A DNA stretch of 64,000 nt. Origin: Escherichia phage I29. Made by a program: the position numbers and the translations under genes. Positions within the stretch are counted from its first letter, which is position 1. Every line of letters begins with the position of its first letter. The stretch lies in sequence record ON286975. One strand, written 5' to 3'. Of this stretch, positions 19,468-33,746 are shown piece by piece. Below the pieces are notes generated by a model. The model worked only from the letters and a program-made list of their open reading frames with translations. It made no database searches and was not told where the DNA came from.

Positions 19468-19701
19468 ATGAAAGTTAAATTTCTTACAGATTTAGGGTAC
19501 CCTTCCTTGGTTGACTGTGTTGGTAAAATTGTGGAAGCAAAACGGCTATCTGCAAACGAGAATGTTGTCCTGGTTAAAGGGAAGGATTTACTAGCTGCAG
19601 GTGCAGAGTCTGGCAGGATCTCTCCTGATTATATGTATTACCTATCTTTAAGTAATCTGCCAGAGCGAGGCGGTAAAGGCCTTGAAGTTGTGGAGGAGTG
19701 A
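19468..19701 (+). CDS. small acidic protein, MKVK-family paralogue
   Basis: MKVKFLTD... VLVKGKDLLAAGA... C-terminal LEVVEE; GGAGG RBS. Confidence 0.5.
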   Translation: MKVKFLTDLGYPSLVDCVGKIVEAKRLSANENVVLVKGKDLLAAGAESGRISPDYMYYLSLSNLPERGGKGLEVVEE

Positions 19702-22851: not shown

Positions 22852-23133
22852 ATGAAAAAGATTAACAGTGGTGAAGTTGAGTTTAAACTTGTCGGGAAAG
22901 GCACTTACTGGGAAGTTCGTCAAAAGGTATATTTGTTCGGTCTTATTCCCTATTGGTCTAAATTCTACTGGGGAGCTAACGAGTGGGGAAGATACGCCAC
23001 CAAATCAATGGCACTTATTGGTATAGCAGAGTACATTGCAGCCAGAGATAGGGTTGGAGACACTTATTACTATACTGCGGACGATATTCGTAACAGTGTT
23101 TACGTCCCACAACCACCTGATGGAGACCGTTGA
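22852..23133 (+). CDS. hypothetical protein
   Basis: ATG 22852 after GGAGGGAG. Confidence 0.5.
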   Translation: MKKINSGEVEFKLVGKGTYWEVRQKVYLFGLIPYWSKFYWGANEWGRYATKSMALIGIAEYIAARDRVGDTYYYTADDIRNSVYVPQPPDGDR

Positions 23134-23357
23134 TGAAAGTTAAAGTTTTAGATTCAAGCTTCTATATTGGTCAGGAGCCTTTAGTAGGGAAATTGTTTAC
23201 TGCTGTCCCTAACGAAGATTACCCTGACCTTTTAAAAATAAAAGGGGCAGATCTTATTGCCGCTGGTGCATCTCAGGAATGCTTTGACAGTCAGTGGACC
23301 TACAACTTTGCCCTAGGTGAGGATGTAGAGGTAGTGGAGGACGATCATGAAGGTTAA
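23133..23357 (+). CDS. small acidic protein, MKVK-family paralogue
   Basis: MKVKVLDS... KIKGADLIAAGA... DVEVVEDD; coupled to upstream stop. Confidence 0.5.
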   Translation: MKVKVLDSSFYIGQEPLVGKLFTAVPNEDYPDLLKIKGADLIAAGASQECFDSQWTYNFALGEDVEVVEDDHEG

Positions 23358-23601
23358 AATTCTTGATTCTAACGTCTACTTGGGACAATCCTTCCTGAAT
23401 GGAAAGGTCGTTCCTGCGGTATACTTTGAAGGGTTGCCGTGGGATGATCCTGTGCGGCAACATCACAGTTATGTAGGCCACAACGTGGTGTTTATCTTGG
23501 GATCAGACCTGATCACCGCTGGTGCACCTGAATATTATTTCGGGGAAGAGTCCTACTATGCCTTTGGGGTAGGGTCAGATGCAGATATTGTAGAGCTGTG
23601 A
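23347..23601 (+). CDS. small acidic protein, MKVK-family paralogue
   Basis: MKVKILDSNVYLGQ... ILGSDLITAGA... DADIVEL. Confidence 0.5.
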   Translation: MKVKILDSNVYLGQSFLNGKVVPAVYFEGLPWDDPVRQHHSYVGHNVVFILGSDLITAGAPEYYFGEESYYAFGVGSDADIVEL

Positions 23602-23613
23602 TGGGTAACCGTT

Positions 23614-24012
23614 GTGAAAAATAAACTGTTTAAAGTTACAATGAAAATTCGCGGGGCTTGGAGCGTAAAGCAAGGGCGTATTCCAGAATTTGAGAAGGAC
23701 TTCTACGTAGTCTCCACCTCGGAGGAGGCTGCATGCTGGCAGGCTGGCTATGCCTATGCAAGAACCTGGTACGAAGGATACCAGACTGGGGGCTATGACG
23801 GAGAAATTATCAGCAAGGGTGTAGAAGAAATTAATGTGTTGACAAGTGAAAAAGTTTTTGTTATAGTGCATCCAGATTCCAGAGTGAAGCATTACTGGAA
23901 TTCCAGAACAAAAACTTGGACACCGTTTGCAGATTCTGCTACACCACTTTTAAACCAGAAAGCTCTTGATTCTGTCCCAAGCTATGGGGTTGTTGAAGAA
24001 AAGCTAAACTGA
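23614..24012 (+). CDS. hypothetical protein (paralogue of 25819-26214)
   Basis: VIVHPDSRVKHYWNSRTKTWTPF resembles FVMRHPHSNIAYYWDVLNNEWTP. Confidence 0.45.
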   Translation: MKNKLFKVTMKIRGAWSVKQGRIPEFEKDFYVVSTSEEAACWQAGYAYARTWYEGYQTGGYDGEIISKGVEEINVLTSEKVFVIVHPDSRVKHYWNSRTKTWTPFADSATPLLNQKALDSVPSYGVVEEKLN

Positions 24013-24326: not shown

Positions 24327-24355
24327 TTGACACAACGCTTCAGATTTAGTATCAT
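24327..24355 (+). promoter_or_regulatory. sigma70-type promoter upstream of HPF homologue
   Basis: TTGACA-17-TATCAT. Confidence 0.5.
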
Positions 24356-24402
24356 TGTTTTCAAAGAGGGTTTGGTTCCCTCTTCTTTAAAAGGAACACG
24401 TT

Positions 24403-24720
24403 ATGCAAATTGAAATCACTGGCAACGTAGAAATCACTGAAGGTATGGTGTCTTTCATTTCCCACAAAATGTCTAAGCTGGAGCGTTTGCACCCCTCTGC
24501 CAACTATGCACGTGTGAGTGTAAAAGTTGAAAATGATCACCAGGAAGTTATGGCGTTCATTTTTGACAATTCTGGAAAAGAAGTTATTGCCAAAGCTAAA
24601 GGCAGTGATGCTTACGAGGCAACTGACCGTATGGTAGATGTTGCAGCACGTCAGCTGGCTAAATGTGGTGGAAAGAAAGGTAAGGGGAAAGGCAAAGTAA
24701 AGATTGACTTTGGAGAATGA
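24403..24720 (+). CDS. hpf: ribosome hibernation promoting factor / RaiA (S30AE) homologue
   Basis: MQIEITGNVEITEGM...KLERL...AKGSDAYEATDRMVDVAARQLAK aligns with E. coli HPF MQLNITGNNVEITEA...KLEQ...AEGQDMYAAIDGLIDKLARQLTK; Lys-rich tail. Confidence 0.8.
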   Translation: MQIEITGNVEITEGMVSFISHKMSKLERLHPSANYARVSVKVENDHQEVMAFIFDNSGKEVIAKAKGSDAYEATDRMVDVAARQLAKCGGKKGKGKGKVKIDFGE

Positions 24721-24729
24721 GGTGCTACA

Positions 24730-24831
24730 ATGGGTGTGATTAAGAAATTAGTCCCAAATGTAGAGATTGCATGCTTTGAAATTATGTTTGCAATCGCAGT
24801 TGTAGTTAATGTGTTAGGTTACGGCTATTAA
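24730..24831 (+). CDS. small hydrophobic peptide, 33 aa
   Basis: MGVIKKLVPNVEIACFEIMFAIAVVVNVLGYGY; GAGGTG RBS just after HPF stop. Confidence 0.4.
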   Translation: MGVIKKLVPNVEIACFEIMFAIAVVVNVLGYGY

Positions 24832-24857: not shown

Positions 24858-25127
24858 ATGAAAATTAAATTATTCAAAACTGAGCTGGCAGACAAAAACT
24901 GTGGACTGGTTGAAGGCATGATTGTCGAAGCACAACCAGTTGACTATATGAAGGTGGTTCGTGATGCCCTGGGTGAAGGTTTTGATCTGATGGAGCCAGC
25001 TCTGCGCGAAGATGTTATCGAGATGGCTAAAAAGCACACACCTGAAGGTTTGGTGGTGTTTGTTGCACCGGGTAACGGAGAAGAGTTGATTGTAACTCCT
25101 GATGTGTATGAGATTGTAGAGGAATAA
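24858..25127 (+). CDS. small acidic protein, MKVK-family paralogue
   Basis: MKIKLFKTEL... C-terminal VYEIVEE; GGAGA RBS. Confidence 0.5.
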   Translation: MKIKLFKTELADKNCGLVEGMIVEAQPVDYMKVVRDALGEGFDLMEPALREDVIEMAKKHTPEGLVVFVAPGNGEELIVTPDVYEIVEE

Positions 25128-25486: not shown

Positions 25487-25819
25487 ATGAAAGTACGCTT
25501 TATTGGTGAAACAATTCCTGTGCATCTCCGGTCGCCTGAAGATTCTGCGGATCTTGCATCTCAGAAGGCGAGAGGTTATGATAAGAAAGTAATCTCAACC
25601 GATGTAGAACTTGAGGCTACTAGTCTACCTGACCCTGCTGCATTCTTCAATCATTATGGATACTATTTCAGCAATCTGATGAATATCGGTGAGCTTGTGT
25701 TTATTAGTGGTGGAGAGATTGTTAGCAAGCTTGGCGGCGATCCAGATGTCTTTCATGAAACCTGTCCTTTTGCATTTGTGGTAGGTTCAGATGTGGAAGT
25801 TATTGAGGAGGTGCGGTAA
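25487..25819 (+). CDS. small acidic protein, MKVK-family paralogue
   Basis: MKVRFIGE... LVFISGGEIVSKLGGDPD... DVEVIEEVR. Confidence 0.5.
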   Translation: MKVRFIGETIPVHLRSPEDSADLASQKARGYDKKVISTDVELEATSLPDPAAFFNHYGYYFSNLMNIGELVFISGGEIVSKLGGDPDVFHETCPFAFVVGSDVEVIEEVR

Positions 25820-26214
25820 TGGTAAGCCTATACCGTGTTGAGTATAGCTCAGATACTGTATACAACGTAAGAAGCAAAGATCGCAGCGACAGAGTGCAAG
25901 AAATGTATGTTCTTGCCGACAGTCCGTTATCTGCAGCGTTCAAGGCAGGGGCTCTTGCATCTCGTTGGAAATTTGAAGGCGGATCTTTCTATGAAGAAAC
26001 CCTTGAAGATTCTGTTGTTATTTCTTCTGTAGAGGTTTCAGACGACTACGAAGGGAAAAAGTTCGTAATGCGGCACCCACACAGCAACATTGCGTACTAC
26101 TGGGATGTTCTGAACAACGAGTGGACCCCAGATCTTCAGAAGGCTACTGTGCTAACACCGTTTTTGGCAGATAAGTTCCCACCAGAAGGTAATTTATCCG
26201 CACTGTTTCAGTAA
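25819..26214 (+). CDS. hypothetical protein (paralogue of 23614-24012)
   Basis: Shared YYW...WTP motif; ATG overlaps upstream stop. Confidence 0.5.
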   Translation: MVSLYRVEYSSDTVYNVRSKDRSDRVQEMYVLADSPLSAAFKAGALASRWKFEGGSFYEETLEDSVVISSVEVSDDYEGKKFVMRHPHSNIAYYWDVLNNEWTPDLQKATVLTPFLADKFPPEGNLSALFQ

Positions 26215-30372: not shown

Positions 30373-30850
30373 TAAGTTCTTCTCTTTTCTTTTACCGAGT
30401 AATTCGGGTTTTCTGTTCTCTTCGGTTTGAAGGGGTATGGAGATACACCTGAGTGAACAGGGTGAACAACCGAACATTTGGCTATGGCATTAGCATGGCG
30501 AAGCGGACGGGTGACGAAAGAGGGGCCGGAGGACACCAGTCACTGCCATATGATATATGGGTGATAACCTGAAGAGTCTGAATAAGTGTTTAAGTACCAG
30601 TCAGAGGAAAAGGTGAATGGTAGCCGAAGGGGGAGGGGGGTTTCTTGTATCTTTAATTTGTATATTATGTATACACTCGTAAACCAATCTCATCTGAATC
30701 TGTTTACCACACAAAGTAGATAGGGACAAATATCACCTATTAAACTTGAATTATTTATAGAAAATACCACAACACCACTTAAGTCTTTGATTTTACACAC
30801 AAATTCTACAGATATTCAACCTCCATATTTAACATACTTGTAACATATTC

Positions 30851-31990
30851 CATACTCTACCTGTCTGATCAATTTCCCCAACCACATCCTCCATATTTTC
30901 CCTGTCTGTACTACCCCTGCCCCGCCGTGAGTCCCGTCATATCTGGCTTTCCAGCAAATATCACACCCACAAATATCATTGCCTGAAGAGGGTTTCATCT
31001 CATAATATATGCCTTACCTGAAGAGCGCTTCATACACCACGTAATTTTTTTTTTAATTGACCCCCTCCCCGCCGCTGGAGAGGTTGGCTTTTCCCACACA
31101 GACCTGAAGAGTCAGCCAGAAATATCTGAACAGGCCCAATTCTACCACGATTTTGACCTGACCTACAGGAGTGCTGCCAGGCGGACGAAATGGGAATCAT
31201 TCTCATTCTTATAACAATTCTCAAATATCGAGGCAGTGAGGCAAATTAATAGGTGAGGCCGTTCACACAATGGCACAACATTTGCAACCTATCTTGTGGG
31301 AGTGAATGAGAATACCTATCATTGTGAGAATAGTTATCATTACGGGCAATTTAACATAATACCCATTATGCGCACCGCTGGTGATACATACAGGGAAAAT
31401 ATGGAGGATGTGGTTGGGGAAATTGATCAGACAGGTAGAGTATGCATACTCTACCTGTCTGATCAATTTCCCCAACCACATCCTCCATATTTTCCCTGTC
31501 TGTACTACCCCTGCCCCGCCGTGAGTCCCGTCATATCTGGCTTTCCAGCAAATATCACACCCACAAATATCATTGCCTGAAGAGGGTTTCATCTCATAAT
31601 ATATGCCTTACCTGAAGAGCGCTTCATACACCACGTAATTTTTTTTTTAATTGACCCCCTCCCCGCCGCTGGAGAGGTTGGCTTTTCCCACACAGACCTG
31701 AAGAGTCAGCCAGAAATATCTGAACAGGCCCAATTCTACCACGATTTTGACCTGACCTACAGGAGTGCTGCCAGGCGGACGAAATGGGAATCATTCTCAT
31801 TCTTATAACAATTCTCAAATATCGAGGCAGTGAGGCAAATTAATAGGTGAGGCCGTTCACACAATGGCACAACATTTGCAACCTATCTTGTGGGAGTGAA
31901 TGAGAATACCTATCATTGTGAGAATAGTTATCATTACGGGCAATTTAACATAATACCCATTATGCGCACCGCTGGTGATACATACAGGGA
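30851..31990. repeat. tandem direct repeat, 594-bp unit x 1.9 copies
   Basis: 30851-31444 is repeated at 31445-31990 with identical sequence where compared; unit contains three CCTGAAGAG motifs and a T10 run. Confidence 0.9.
31393..31496. repeat. perfect 104-bp palindrome at the tandem-repeat junction
   Basis: gggaaaatatggaggatgtggttggggaaattgatcagacaggtagagtatg is immediately followed by its exact reverse complement. Confidence 0.9.
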
Positions 31991-32272
31991 TTGATAACAT
32001 GAGTTACAGTTTACACACATAACAATTATATTTCTTACTATTTGTGTGGGATATAGTTAGCAACCAATAGATTAGATATTGACCTGTAGACTTCCAACCG
32101 TCTAGACGTCTAAACGCCCACACAACAAGGCTTATACATACACAACTGAATGTAAACAGGGCCGCAAAAATGCTACCATACCAGATTGTAAATTTTCATG
32201 CAGCACTTGACAAAGAGGAGAAAAACTTGTCTGACATAATGGTGACACTGAACATAATTGACATGCCTGACT

Positions 32273-32372
32273 GTTTACGCTATCACTATTCACTCCCTTT
32301 ACTGTTTACATTCTCAATAGTTTACATGTCTAATAGTTTACATAGCTAACTGTTCACGCATAGATTGTTTAC
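32273..32372. repeat. iteron-like array of GTTTAC(A) motifs
   Basis: Six (A/T)GTTTACA-like sites; the last five are spaced 15-17 bp apart (32304, 32320, 32337, 32352, 32367). Confidence 0.6.
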
Positions 32373-32385
32373 TCAAAAATGATAA

Positions 32386-32664
32386 GCCATGCCATTCGTT
32401 TGCATGATAAAGATTAGCAAGTTAATAATCTTTCGCTGGCTATGCCAGGTGACTAGGTCACCCCTTCGGGCGTTCCTATGACATAATATAAAAGCAGGGC
32501 AACTATTAGCAGATCTATAGTTGCCTTGCTTGTTATGTCATGATTAACTAAATACAAGGCAACTATGATCTGATTAATAGATTGCAGACAAACTATCACG
32601 GGGGTGATGGTTACTGCTTTTATATTATGTCGCGACTCCGTCGCGCCATGCCATTCGTTTGCAT
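32386..32664. repeat. symmetric element: paired 20-mers flanking inverted repeats
   Basis: gccatgccattcgtttgcat at 32386 and 32645; palindrome ggtgactaggtcacc; inverted 19-mers tgacataatataaaagcag / ctgcttttatattatgtc; GGCAACTAT x4 in both orientations. Confidence 0.6.
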
Positions 32665-33280
32665 AGTTGCCTTATTGTTACAGATAAAATAATTGTATTG
32701 TTAATTATTTCTTATCTTTCTCTTAGTCATCTAATGATTCCAGTCAGTATAGTAATGTACAGTAAACATTAGACGACTAAAGATTTCTCTGTTTATGATA
32801 ACTCACCGTGATAATTTCAGACTGTTTACGAAAAATGTTGACACCTAAGCTGATTTATGCTATGCAGTTTACACGAATAATTATTTTATGCAGGTATTGA
32901 CTATTCCGTTATTCTATGGTTGGAATAAATACTTAGTAGGCTATAGAATGGCGAGCGTACGTAAATTCTGAGATCTGGCGGCTATAGTTATACTCGATTT
33001 TTCACGTAGAACACGCTTTTGTGGTTATGTAAGTGTATGACTTATAAAGATTTTTAGTTGTTGACAAGATACTGAAGATGTGCATCAGGTTAAATTTTAT
33101 GCAATAGCTGCATTACGTGCAATTTTGGAAGGAAAAACGTGTAAAAATGGCCCTGCTACCACACAATGAAAGATTATGCAATAGCTATTTTACATGTATA
33201 TTTGTACAGTGTGTGGGATTGATGGCTAGTCAATTATTCCACTTGCCAGGTAGGGCCGTTTATGGTAGGAGAAGAGCAGA

Positions 33281-33308
33281 CAAAAAGAAAGGGGCCTTTA
33301 AGCCCCTT
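33281..33308. terminator. bidirectional terminator-like hairpin
   Basis: ggggc-ctttaa-gcccc flanked by an A-run upstream and T-rich downstream; just 3' of minus gene 33327-33746. Confidence 0.5.
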
Positions 33309-33326
33309 GATAATTCAGTTAAGAAA

Positions 33327-33746
33327 TTATAATGATTCGTATATTTCAAAAATCCGATTTGCCAGGTCGTTACGGTAGCGGAATTTTTCCTCACGTTTGA
33401 TCATCAGATCTTTAAAGCCATATTCTTTAAGCACTTCATTAACTTTATGGCGGCACACCTTCATATTATCTTGAGCGTCACCAATAAACTTGTTGCTGTG
33501 GTGCATTGCTTTAATTTCTTCTTCCAGGACCAGGGCAACTACCCGGACCGGATCAAGCTGGTAGGCGGTAACATCGATGCGGCATTGTAGACGGCTTTTA
33601 ACGTCTGCCACCGGATATACTGCAACCTCTTCCCCGTCAACATTGACAATAACTAGTTTACCATCGATTTCGAATCCTTTCGCCGCCGGACCGTGACAAA
33701 AAGCGTTATCAAAGCTATATGCCGGATTATTAGATTTAATGTTCAT
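33327..33746 (-). CDS. hypothetical protein
   Basis: 139 aa; first gene of - strand cluster. Confidence 0.5.
   Translation of the reverse strand: MNIKSNNPAYSFDNAFCHGPAAKGFEIDGKLVIVNVDGEEVAVYPVADVKSRLQCRIDVTAYQLDPVRVVALVLEEEIKAMHHSNKFIGDAQDNMKVCRHKVNEVLKEYGFKDLMIKREEKFRYRNDLANRIFEIYESL

What the first reader, a model, noticed from the sequence alone, without database searches (positions are those of the whole stretch)
24403..24720. Phage-encoded ribosome hibernation factor (HPF/RaiA) homologue with its own promoter
The 105-aa product aligns along its length with bacterial HPF/YfiA (MQIEITGNVEITEGM... vs MQLNITGNNVEITEA...; ...AKGSDAYEATDRMVDVAARQLAK vs ...AEGQDMYAAIDGLIDKLARQLTK) and adds a Lys/Gly-rich tail. 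It sits behind a TTGACA-17-TATCAT promoter and is followed by a 33-aa hydrophobic peptide ORF. A phage copy could silence or protect host ribosomes during takeover.
Basis: partly seen in the sequence, partly recalled or inferred. Interest (0 to 1): 0.7.

Follow-up and report, generated by a model that had tools for sequence, protein, structure and literature searches.

The report
Known phage copy of ribosome-hibernation factor
This is the already annotated and published HPF (ribosome hibernation promoting factor) homologue of rV5-like E. coli phages: a real, strongly conserved gene whose role in infection is still unknown, because the one published ribosome-binding test could not have detected even the host's own HPF.

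Summary
Window 24403-24720 (+) encodes a 105-aa protein that passes the curated cut-offs of Pfam PF02482 and TIGR00741. It is 43% identical to E. coli HPF and 25% to RaiA. The model has the HPF fold plus a disordered Lys/Gly tail. A TTGACA-17-TATCAT promoter lies upstream and a 33-aa hydrophobic ORF downstream.

It is not new. The window is an rV5-like Vequintavirus and the protein is identical to rV5 ORF144, annotated with promoter P144 since 2006. Mizuno et al. 2019 listed it as a viral HPF and expressed it in E. coli. They did not find it in purified ribosomes and saw no effect on 100S.

What I add:
- The gene descends from HPF, not RaiA.
- It is present in about 117 of 119 Vequintavirus records and in a diverged sister lineage (64% identity), but absent from other Vequintavirinae genera.
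- The core is under strong purifying selection (dN/dS about 0.05).
- The published negative is uninformative. Ribosomes were washed in 500 mM NH4Cl, and host HPF and RMF, both present in the extract, were also absent from the ribosome samples.

Function is unproven. The best guess is canonical, salt-labile binding to the 30S decoding channel.

The parts
24327..24355 (+). Sigma-70-type promoter, TTGACA-17-TATCAT (rV5 P144)
   Evidence: The consensus scan matches 11 of 12 positions. The rV5 record annotates it as P144. The -35 hexamer and its flank (AAACTGTTGACAC) are invariant in 8 loci, including the 64%-identity lineage. No transcription start site has been mapped.
24364..24384 (+). Stem-loop between promoter and start codon (AAGAGGG / CCCTCTT). 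Probably not significant.
   Evidence: The minimum free energy is -9.9 kcal/mol with z = -0.2 against shuffles. The stem is weakened in phage V18 and absent in the divergent lineage, where GAGGG serves directly as the ribosome-binding site. The terminator scan does not call it.
24391..24395 (+). Shine-Dalgarno-like AAGGA, 7 nt before the ATG
   Evidence: Read directly from the sequence. It is conserved in the six Vequintavirus loci aligned. Murica's record annotates a ribosome-binding site here.
24403..24720 (+). HPF-homologue gene (105 aa plus stop), equal to rV5 ORF144 / ABI79209
   Evidence: The protein is 100% identical to the rV5 protein.
24403..24666 (+). Core domain, residues 1-88, with beta-alpha-beta-beta-beta-alpha fold
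   Evidence: The AlphaFold2 model has core pLDDT of about 90, with elements E2-7, H13-29, E33-42, E47-55, E60-67 and H70-89. Foldseek gives rmsd 1.0-1.1 A to V. cholerae HPF (4hei) and to E. coli HPF in the 100S ribosome (6h4n_x). dN/dS is 0.04-0.09.
24667..24717 (+). Basic, disordered C-terminal tail, residues 89-105 (GGKKGKGKGKVKIDFGE)
   Evidence: pLDDT is below 50 for residues 91-105 and net charge is +4. The tail is altered by frameshift or truncation in APCEc02 and Murica but stays basic. The divergent lineage has a different basic tail, SKSKGIDKRTAKWDY. In the two most divergent Vequintavirus loci the changes are mostly synonymous, though counts are small.
24704..24731 (+). Second promoter-like site, TTGACT-16-TACAAT with TG extension, overlapping the 3' end of the HPF gene
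   Evidence: It matches 10 of 12 positions. The divergent lineage has a comparable TTTACA-17-TACACT in the same place, read from the sequence. Function is not tested.
24730..24831 (+). 33-aa ORF with a hydrophobic C-terminal half (rV5 ORF145, phrog_15151); a neighbour, not shown to be part of the system
   Evidence: It matches phrog_15151 at E 3.7e-26. It is present in 10 of 10 Vequintavirus loci with an almost invariant hydrophobic segment, and absent from the divergent HPF-bearing lineage. There are too few substitutions to test coding constraint.

Best explanation
This is the Vequintavirus (rV5-like) copy of a short, HPF-type ribosome hibernation factor. It was captured from a gammaproteobacterial hpf-like gene before the split of Vequintavirus and a sister lineage, and has been kept under strong purifying selection.

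Shown: family membership, fold, descent from HPF rather than RaiA, conservation, and a conserved host-type promoter in the block of small early-type ORFs.

Inferred: the gene is transcribed by unmodified host RNA polymerase early in infection. The protein binds vacant host 30S/70S ribosomes in the decoding channel between head and body, overlapping the mRNA and A/P-tRNA sites, as HPF and RaiA do. Binding is salt-labile. The effect is to park ribosomes and shield them, for example from RNases, while host mRNA disappears, and to compete with the host's own RaiA and HPF for the same site. The 17-residue basic tail would continue from helix alpha-2 toward the E-site and anti-SD region.

Confidence that it is a true HPF-family homologue is about 0.97. 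The 0.5 given below is for the ribosome-binding, parking and protection mechanism.
For: Family and fold:
- Pfam and TIGR profiles match above their curated cut-offs.
- It aligns to solved E. coli HPF over residues 1-89.
- The modelled fold matches ribosome-bound HPF at rmsd about 1 A.

Descent: enterobacterial HPFs are 39-45% identical and RaiAs 22-28%. The NCBIfam HPF model scores 55.8 bits and the RaiA model 17.6.

Retained residues: K25, L26, E43, Y71, R83, L85 and K87 are kept in both phage lineages. K87 and Y71 correspond, by a constant offset of 6, to T. thermophilus HPF Arg93 (an h44 backbone contact) and Tyr77 (PMC6177447).

Selection and distribution:
- Core dN/dS is 0.04-0.09, tighter than the upstream ORF143 at 0.20-0.26.
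- The gene is in 117 phage records, against 119 records matching a core gene at 90% identity or more.
- The orthologue is kept at 64% identity in a syntenic position in a sister lineage.

Expression: the -35 element is conserved and the gene lies in the small-ORF unit, genes 82-163 (PMC3606486).

Precedent: host hibernation factors protect ribosomes from RNases (PMC7913689 abstract).

Weak hint of competition: host RaiA was detected in the washed ribosomes of the two other samples (1 and 6 spectra) but not in those from cells expressing the viral HPF, although RaiA was present in that extract.
Against: - Mizuno et al. 2019 did not find the protein in 70S/100S ribosomes and saw no change in 100S. 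I discount this, because ribosomes went through a 500 mM NH4Cl cushion, cells were taken at the end of exponential phase, and host HPF and RMF were likewise absent from all three ribosome samples although present in the extract.
- Both phage lineages have replaced residues that are nearly invariant in cellular HPF and RaiA: R17 to V, D/E50 to M or S, and K80 to V or T. K80 is the counterpart of T. thermophilus Arg86, a reported h44 contact. This could mean weakened or altered binding.
- No expression timing data were found.
- A protein that blocks the decoding site would also block phage translation unless its level or affinity is tuned.
- The structure model used an alignment of HPF and RaiA sequences, so it is not independent of the homology.
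Confidence: 0.5

Rival explanations
1. Anti-hibernation competitor. The protein binds the canonical site, but its purpose is to antagonise the host's hibernation. The HPF-derived core displaces RaiA and HPF. The long basic tail, like the RaiA tail or the long-HPF linker, occupies the anti-SD/RMF region and so prevents RMF-driven 100S formation. This would keep ribosomes as quickly reusable 70S in stationary-phase hosts or hosts made dormant by a defence system.
For: - The tail extends 10 residues beyond the end of E. coli HPF. By the offset of 6 it reaches T. thermophilus HPF-equivalent position 111. In that structure residues 104-112 overlap the SD/anti-SD duplex and lie close to the RMF site (PMC6177447).
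- RaiA blocks RMF-mediated 100S assembly (PMC13152769; PMC7764885).
- Mizuno et al. proposed this kind of competition.
- RMF rises during DRT2-induced dormancy in phage-infected cells (PMC11100668).
- RaiA was missing from ribosomes of cells expressing the viral HPF.
- Loss of the K80 contact would fit weaker, more reversible binding.
Against: - Expression of the viral HPF had no discernible effect on 100S, although few 100S particles existed at that growth stage.
- The tail is shortened or frameshifted in APCEc02 (101 aa) and Murica (99 aa), which were deposited as complete genomes of isolated phages, so the full tail seems dispensable, unless these are sequencing errors.
- The tail sequence differs in the sister lineage.
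- The geometric argument is an extrapolation from another species' long HPF and was not modelled.
Confidence: 0.2
2. Neofunctionalised fold. The protein keeps the HPF scaffold but no longer acts on the ribosomal decoding site. It binds another RNA or protein target during takeover.
For: - It was not recovered with ribosomes.
- Both lineages share replacements at positions nearly invariant in cellular family members: R17, D/E50, S64, M70 and K80.
- The clade is isolated. Nothing outside it exceeds 45% identity among 1.84 billion representatives.
- It scores far below the NCBIfam equivalog cut-offs for HPF (55.8 against 125) and RaiA (17.6 against 158).
- A precedent exists for second functions of HPF: S. 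aureus HPF also binds YwlG (PMC9522360 abstract).
Against: - The negative binding result is uninformative.
- Most family-wide conserved residues are retained, including K87, R83, Y71 and K25.
- V or T at position 80 and non-basic residues at position 17 also occur in cellular members.
- No alternative target is suggested by context or domains.
Confidence: 0.2
3. Dispensable passenger gene, or a sigma-54 regulator as the old name suggests.
For: The historical annotation is 'sigma 54 modulation factor'. The gene lies among many small ORFs of unknown function.
Against: - dN/dS of about 0.05 and near-universal retention across the genus and a sister lineage argue against a decaying passenger.
- From general knowledge, the sigma-54 name reflects only the position of hpf in the rpoN operon.
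- The family members returned by the solved-structure searches are nearly all named ribosome-binding or hibernation factors, many solved on the ribosome.
Confidence: 0.05

Closest known systems
E. coli / enterobacterial short HPF (YhbH; PDB 2rql, 6h4n chain x)
   Same: It has the same length class and the same beta-alpha-beta-beta-beta-alpha fold (rmsd 1.1 A). It is 39-45% identical over residues 1-89, the closest cellular group. K25, Y71, R83 and K87 are conserved. It is a single domain with no dimerisation domain.
   Different: - It carries a 10-residue longer, Lys/Gly-rich tail.
- R17, D50 and K80 are replaced.
- It is far below the NCBIfam HPF equivalog cut-off (55.8 against 125).
- It is encoded in a phage early-type region behind its own sigma-70 promoter, not in the rpoN operon.
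- No 100S-promoting activity was seen on expression.
E. coli RaiA (YfiA, protein Y)
   Same: It belongs to the same family and has the same fold. It has a C-terminal extension beyond helix alpha-2 of roughly comparable reach, and RaiA's extension is what blocks RMF. RaiA shares the HPF binding site.
   Different: It is only 22-28% identical. The NCBIfam RaiA model scores 17.6 against a cut-off of 158. The RaiA tail is acidic at its end (net -4) whereas the phage tail is strongly basic (+4).
rV5 gp144 and the viral HPFs of Mizuno et al. 2019 (Nat Commun 10:752)
   Same: It is the same protein, 100% identical to ABI79209. That paper already reports the Pfam assignment, the placement among gammaproteobacterial sequences, and an expression test.
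   Different: Nothing differs in the object itself. This work adds the HPF-versus-RaiA assignment, the residue and tail analysis, the sister-lineage orthologue, the dN/dS values, and the re-reading of their supplementary MS data.
Other phage HPF homologues (phrog_8990; Cronobacter phage GAP32 AFC21633)
   Same: They share the Pfam family and are also carried by large myoviruses.
   Different: The relationship is distant: E 1.5e-6 to phrog_8990 against 7.5e-71 to its own phrog_12469. tblastn at E 1e-3 finds no phage outside Vequintavirus. Mizuno et al. place GAP32 elsewhere in the tree, which points to an independent acquisition.
Long HPF of Firmicutes, Thermus and others
   Same: The N-terminal domain is homologous, and a linker after alpha-2 runs toward the anti-SD region.
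   Different: The phage protein has no C-terminal dimerisation domain. It ends after a 17-residue disordered tail.

Membership tests
HPF/RaiA (Ribosomal_S30AE, PF02482; TIGR00741) | Profile match above the curated family threshold | tested here: met
   PF02482 scores 48.3 bits against 23.7, covering residues 3-88 and profile positions 1-83 of 88. TIGR00741 scores 45.9 against 40.9.
HPF/RaiA (Ribosomal_S30AE, PF02482; TIGR00741) | Beta-alpha-beta-beta-beta-alpha fold with two helices packed on a four-stranded sheet | tested here: met
   In the AlphaFold2 model the core pLDDT is about 90 and the elements come in the right order. The top 36 Foldseek PDB hits are all HPF, RaiA or pY chains, with the best rmsd 1.0-1.1 A. 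Caveat: the model was built on an alignment of family members.
HPF/RaiA (Ribosomal_S30AE, PF02482; TIGR00741) | Conserved basic and aromatic residues that contact 16S rRNA (alpha-1 Lys, alpha-2 Lys/Arg, core Tyr) | tested here: inconclusive
   K25, Y71, R83 and K87 are retained. R17 is replaced by V, D/E50 by M or S, and K80 by V or T in both phage lineages. K80 and K87 correspond to T. thermophilus HPF Arg86 and Arg93, which contact h44. That mapping uses a constant offset of 6 and was not checked by an explicit alignment.
HPF/RaiA (Ribosomal_S30AE, PF02482; TIGR00741) | Binds the 30S decoding channel and inhibits translation | not testable with these tools
   The only published test was negative: salt-washed ribosomes from end-of-exponential cells. 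Host HPF and RMF were also lost in that preparation, so it does not decide the question.
Enterobacterial HPF equivalog (NF007780) | Score at or above the equivalog cut-off (orthologue-level similarity) | tested here: not met
   It scores 55.8 bits against a cut-off of 125. This is the best-scoring specific model, but the protein is not an equivalog.
Enterobacterial HPF equivalog (NF007780) | Converts RMF-induced 90S to 100S (promotes dimers) | not testable with these tools
   Mizuno et al. saw no discernible effect on 100S on expression. Cells had few 100S particles at that stage.
Enterobacterial HPF equivalog (NF007780) | Gene in the rpoN operon | tested here: not met
   It lies in a phage block of small ORFs behind its own sigma-70-type promoter.
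RaiA / YfiA equivalog (NF007654) | Score at or above the equivalog cut-off, and the RaiA-type tail ending in an acidic run | tested here: not met
   It scores 17.6 bits against a cut-off of 158 and is 22-28% identical to RaiAs. The tail is basic (+4) whereas RaiA's is -4.
Long HPF | C-terminal dimerisation domain | tested here: not met
   The protein is 105 aa and residues 91-105 are disordered.

The most novel reading that the evidence does not exclude
The phage protein is an evolved anti-hibernation tool. It is an HPF-derived core with weakened h44 contacts (K80 lost) and a basic tail long enough to reach the anti-SD/RMF pocket. It binds reversibly, evicts host RaiA and HPF, blocks RMF, and so prevents or reverses 100S and 70S hibernation. 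That would include dormancy triggered by ppGpp or by abortive-infection defences, and would keep ribosomes intact and immediately available for phage mRNAs. It would be the first viral antagonist of ribosome hibernation.
Probability: 0.2. Interest if true: 0.65.

Novelty: already known. Interest (0 to 1): 0.3.

Why it matters
How lytic phages deal with the host's ribosome pool is poorly understood, especially in slow-growing or dormant gut bacteria. A virus-borne hibernation factor under strong selection in a very common group of E. coli phages is a natural entry point to that question. The gene itself is not news. The useful result here is that the single published negative experiment should not close the question, and that simple low-salt experiments with host factors as positive controls could settle it. 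If the protein protects ribosomes or counteracts hibernation, that bears on phage therapy against stationary-phase bacteria and on dormancy-based defences.

Tried and rejected
- **5' stem-loop (24364-24384) as a regulatory or stabilising element.** It is no more stable than shuffled sequence (z -0.2), shows no compensatory changes, and is absent in the sister lineage.
- **33-aa ORF as a functional partner.** It is absent from the divergent lineage that keeps the HPF gene, and has too few substitutions to test coding constraint.
- **Downstream 89-aa ORF as a second 'sigma 54 modulation factor', as several records label it.** It has no Pfam hit and no similarity to HPF. This is an annotation slip that started with APCEc02 and was copied on.
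- **Searches that gave little.**
  - The word-indexed protein search with the phage protein alone returned only phage copies.
  - IMG/VR gave only 2 loci.
  - The exhaustive representative search gave 22 weak hits and no close cellular donor.
  - Rfam and tRNA scans of the window found nothing.
- **Literature that gave nothing on this gene.**
  - The LL12 Keio screen paper has no occurrence of the ribosome or hibernation terms I searched.
  - The 2025 preprint on hibernation-factor evolution does not mention phages.
  - The P. aeruginosa HPF paper has no occurrence of the mutagenesis terms I searched.
  - Polikanov et al. 2012 is not held in the library.
  - I found no transcriptome of a Vequintavirus infection.
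- **Ungapped dN/dS for V18.** The value is an artefact of a one-codon insertion. The gapped value is 0.062.

Full report
**1. What is there**

An AAGGA ribosome-binding site lies 7 nt upstream. A TTGACA-17-TATCAT promoter-like site lies at 24327-24355 in the 82-nt gap after the preceding ORF. A 33-codon ORF with a hydrophobic C-terminal half follows at 24730-24831.

**2. What it is**

The protein passes the curated thresholds of Pfam PF02482 (48.3 bits against 23.7) and TIGR00741 (45.9 against 40.9). It aligns to solved E. coli HPF over residues 1-89 (E 5e-12).

An AlphaFold2 model built on a 32-sequence alignment has a confident core (pLDDT about 90) with beta-alpha-beta-beta-beta-alpha topology and a disordered tail from residue 91. 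Its best structural matches are V. cholerae HPF and E. coli HPF in the 100S ribosome, at about 1 A rmsd. The first 36 PDB hits are all HPF, RaiA or pY chains. The model used family members as its alignment, so it corroborates the homology rather than testing it independently.

Within the family the protein sits on the HPF side:
- It is 43% identical to E. coli HPF and 25% to RaiA.
- Enterobacterial HPFs are 39-45% identical and RaiAs 22-28%.
- The NCBIfam HPF model scores 55.8 bits and the RaiA model 17.6. Both are well below their equivalog cut-offs.

HPF residues 1-89 agree with the PDB alignment, and both sequences sit among near-identical database proteins.

**3. It is already known**

The window is an rV5-like Vequintavirus, 99.6% identical to phage PDX and 98.7% to rV5. 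The protein is 100% identical to rV5 ORF144 (ABI79209). The 2006 record calls it 'sigma 54 modulation factor' and annotates the same promoter as P144. About 117 GenBank phage records carry it under HPF, RaiA or sigma-54-modulation names.

Mizuno et al. 2019 (PMC6375957) list it among virus-encoded ribosome-associated proteins. They place it among gammaproteobacterial sequences and suggest it might compete with cellular homologues to prevent ribosome dimers. They also tested it. With pBAD expression in E. coli it was detected in crude extract but not in purified 70S/100S ribosomes, and 100S formation did not change. Searches for later work on a viral HPF found nothing further.

**4. Re-reading the published negative result**

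In that experiment cells were harvested at OD600 = 1, and ribosomes were pelleted through a cushion containing 500 mM NH4Cl.

- The authors' Supplementary Data 5 (crude extract of cells expressing the viral HPF) contains host RMF, host HPF and host RaiA.
- Supplementary Data 4 (ribosomes from such cells, 71 proteins) contains none of them.
- Host HPF and RMF are also absent from the ribosome samples of the other two constructs.

So the procedure did not retain the host's own HPF and RMF, and it cannot show that the viral protein fails to bind. The Wada laboratory's protocols, which discovered these factors, detect them in crude ribosomes and keep a separate 1 M salt-washed preparation. It is my own background knowledge, not a tool result, that high-salt washes strip these factors.

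One detail may be a lead. Host RaiA was found in the ribosomes of the bS21 sample (1 spectrum) and the bL12 sample (6 spectra), but not in those from cells expressing the viral HPF. This is a single unquantified comparison without an empty-vector control. Displacement of RaiA from the shared binding site is therefore only a hint.

**5. Evolution and distribution**

- tblastn finds the gene in 117 phage records, all Vequintavirus by name or by near-identity.
- A core-gene segment (ribonucleotide reductase) matches 119 records at 90% identity or more. It also matches 20 records at 60-80%, from Salmonella, Cronobacter and Enterobacter phages, none of which has the HPF gene at E 1e-3.
- A diverged orthologue (P0004, 64% identity, 103 aa) sits in the syntenic position in 125-137 kb contigs from metagenomes. 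These contigs share only patches of 81-88% nucleotide identity with Vequintavirus.
- Outside this phage clade, nothing among 1.84 billion representative proteins exceeds 45% identity. The capture is therefore old, and no close donor is identifiable.
- Selection is strong. Core dN/dS is 0.04-0.09 against five to nine relatives, with up to 25 synonymous and 5 non-synonymous differences. That is tighter than the upstream ORF143 (0.20-0.26).

**6. Residues and tail**

The family-wide conserved K25, L26, E43, Y71, R83, L85 and K87 are kept in both phage lineages.

Both lineages replace positions that are nearly invariant in enterobacterial HPF and RaiA: R17 to V, D50 to M or S, S64 to K, M70 to A, and K80 to V or T. 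In a more diverse set, position 50 is almost always acidic, position 17 is usually basic, and position 80 is usually Lys, though V or T occurs in a few cellular members.

In the T. thermophilus 100S structure, Arg86 and Arg93 on helix alpha-2 bind the h44 backbone and Tyr77 is the conserved core tyrosine (PMC6177447). With a constant offset of 6 these correspond to positions 80, 87 and 71 here. That mapping is my inference and was not checked by an explicit alignment. On that reading one reported h44 contact is lost and one is kept.

The tail (GGKKGKGKGKVKIDFGE, net +4) extends 10 residues beyond the end of E. coli HPF. By the same offset it reaches the equivalent of T. thermophilus residue 111. 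There, residues 104-112 overlap the SD/anti-SD duplex and lie near the RMF site.

The tail is not fixed in sequence. APCEc02 and Murica carry frameshifted or truncated versions, and the sister lineage has a different basic tail. In the two most divergent Vequintavirus loci the tail changes are mostly synonymous. Basic extensions after alpha-2 are common in the family.

**7. Surroundings**

- The -35 hexamer and its flank are invariant in all eight loci aligned, including the sister lineage.
- The gene lies in the long run of small same-strand ORFs that the rV5 paper groups as transcription unit 82-163. That paper reports host-type promoters spread across the genome. I infer early expression from this context. 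No timing data were found.
- The stem-loop between promoter and start codon is not significant and is lineage-specific.
- The 33-aa ORF is conserved within Vequintavirus but missing from the sister lineage.
- A second promoter-like site overlaps the 3' end of the gene.

**8. Mechanism**

The best-supported reading (about 0.5) is that the protein still does what the family does. It would bind vacant ribosomes in the decoding channel, reversibly and in a salt-sensitive way. During takeover it would park and shield ribosomes, since host hibernation factors block RNase access (PMC7913689), and it would compete with host RaiA and HPF.

The rivals are:
- A more specific anti-hibernation role, in which the tail blocks RMF (0.2).
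- Neofunctionalisation away from the ribosome (0.2).
- A passenger gene or sigma-54 role (0.05).

What is shown is family membership, fold, descent from HPF, conservation and the conserved promoter. Binding, timing and benefit to the phage are inferred.

**9. Verdict**

This is a correct observation of a real and biologically interesting gene, but one that is already annotated, published and partly tested. Interest is modest (0.3). The open functional question, and the weakness of the only negative experiment, are the points worth passing on.

Noticed in passing
window 30800-33400 (about rV5 104013-106618): The stretch that the rV5 paper calls ORF-free holds a 100% identical direct repeat of at least 300 nt (30851-31150 and 31445-31744, spacing 594). 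It also has 65-nt inverted arms at 95% complementarity (30851-30915 / 31380-31444 / 31445-31509) and a cluster of shorter direct and inverted repeats at 32.0-33.4 kb. GC skew changes sign near 29 kb. It may be an origin-like or regulatory repeat region.
   Followed up: partly
window 19468-19701, 23130-23357, 23347-23601; and 23614-24012, 25819-26214: Two groups of paralogous small ORFs flank the HPF gene (blastp E 5e-6 to 2e-13, and 7e-9), which suggests local duplication in this block. By eye, several other neighbours share acidic C-terminal endings (…YEIVEE, …YEVVDEE, …VEVIEE), but they fall below the blastp threshold.
   Followed up: partly
GenBank records OR062525, OR062530, MT884009, MT884011; APCEc02 KR698074 and descendants: There are annotation errors. 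In four records the HPF gene is labelled 'ATP-dependent protease La Type I'. In APCEc02 the unrelated downstream 89-aa ORF (window 24858-25127) is labelled 'sigma 54 modulation factor', and this label has been copied into ECP32, nomo and others. That ORF has no Pfam hit and no similarity to HPF.
   Followed up: yes
phage records MG0656xx (hits H7-H10, H14, H15 and others): Eighteen records named 'Campylobacter phage', with host Campylobacter jejuni, are about 98% identical to E. coli rV5-like phages across this region. The host assignment looks doubtful, for example through contamination or mislabelling.
   Followed up: no
protein P0006 (representative library): A 1160-aa protein matches residues 35-81 of the phage HPF in 8 separate stretches (E 2.9e-9). 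It may be a protein built from repeated HPF-like beta-sheet units.
   Followed up: no
L002 4313-4395 (divergent lineage, downstream of its HPF gene): In place of the 33-aa ORF there is a short intergenic stretch with an 8-bp perfect palindrome (TCTGTAGT-AC-ACTACAGA) inside a TTTACA-17-TACACT promoter-like site.
   Followed up: no
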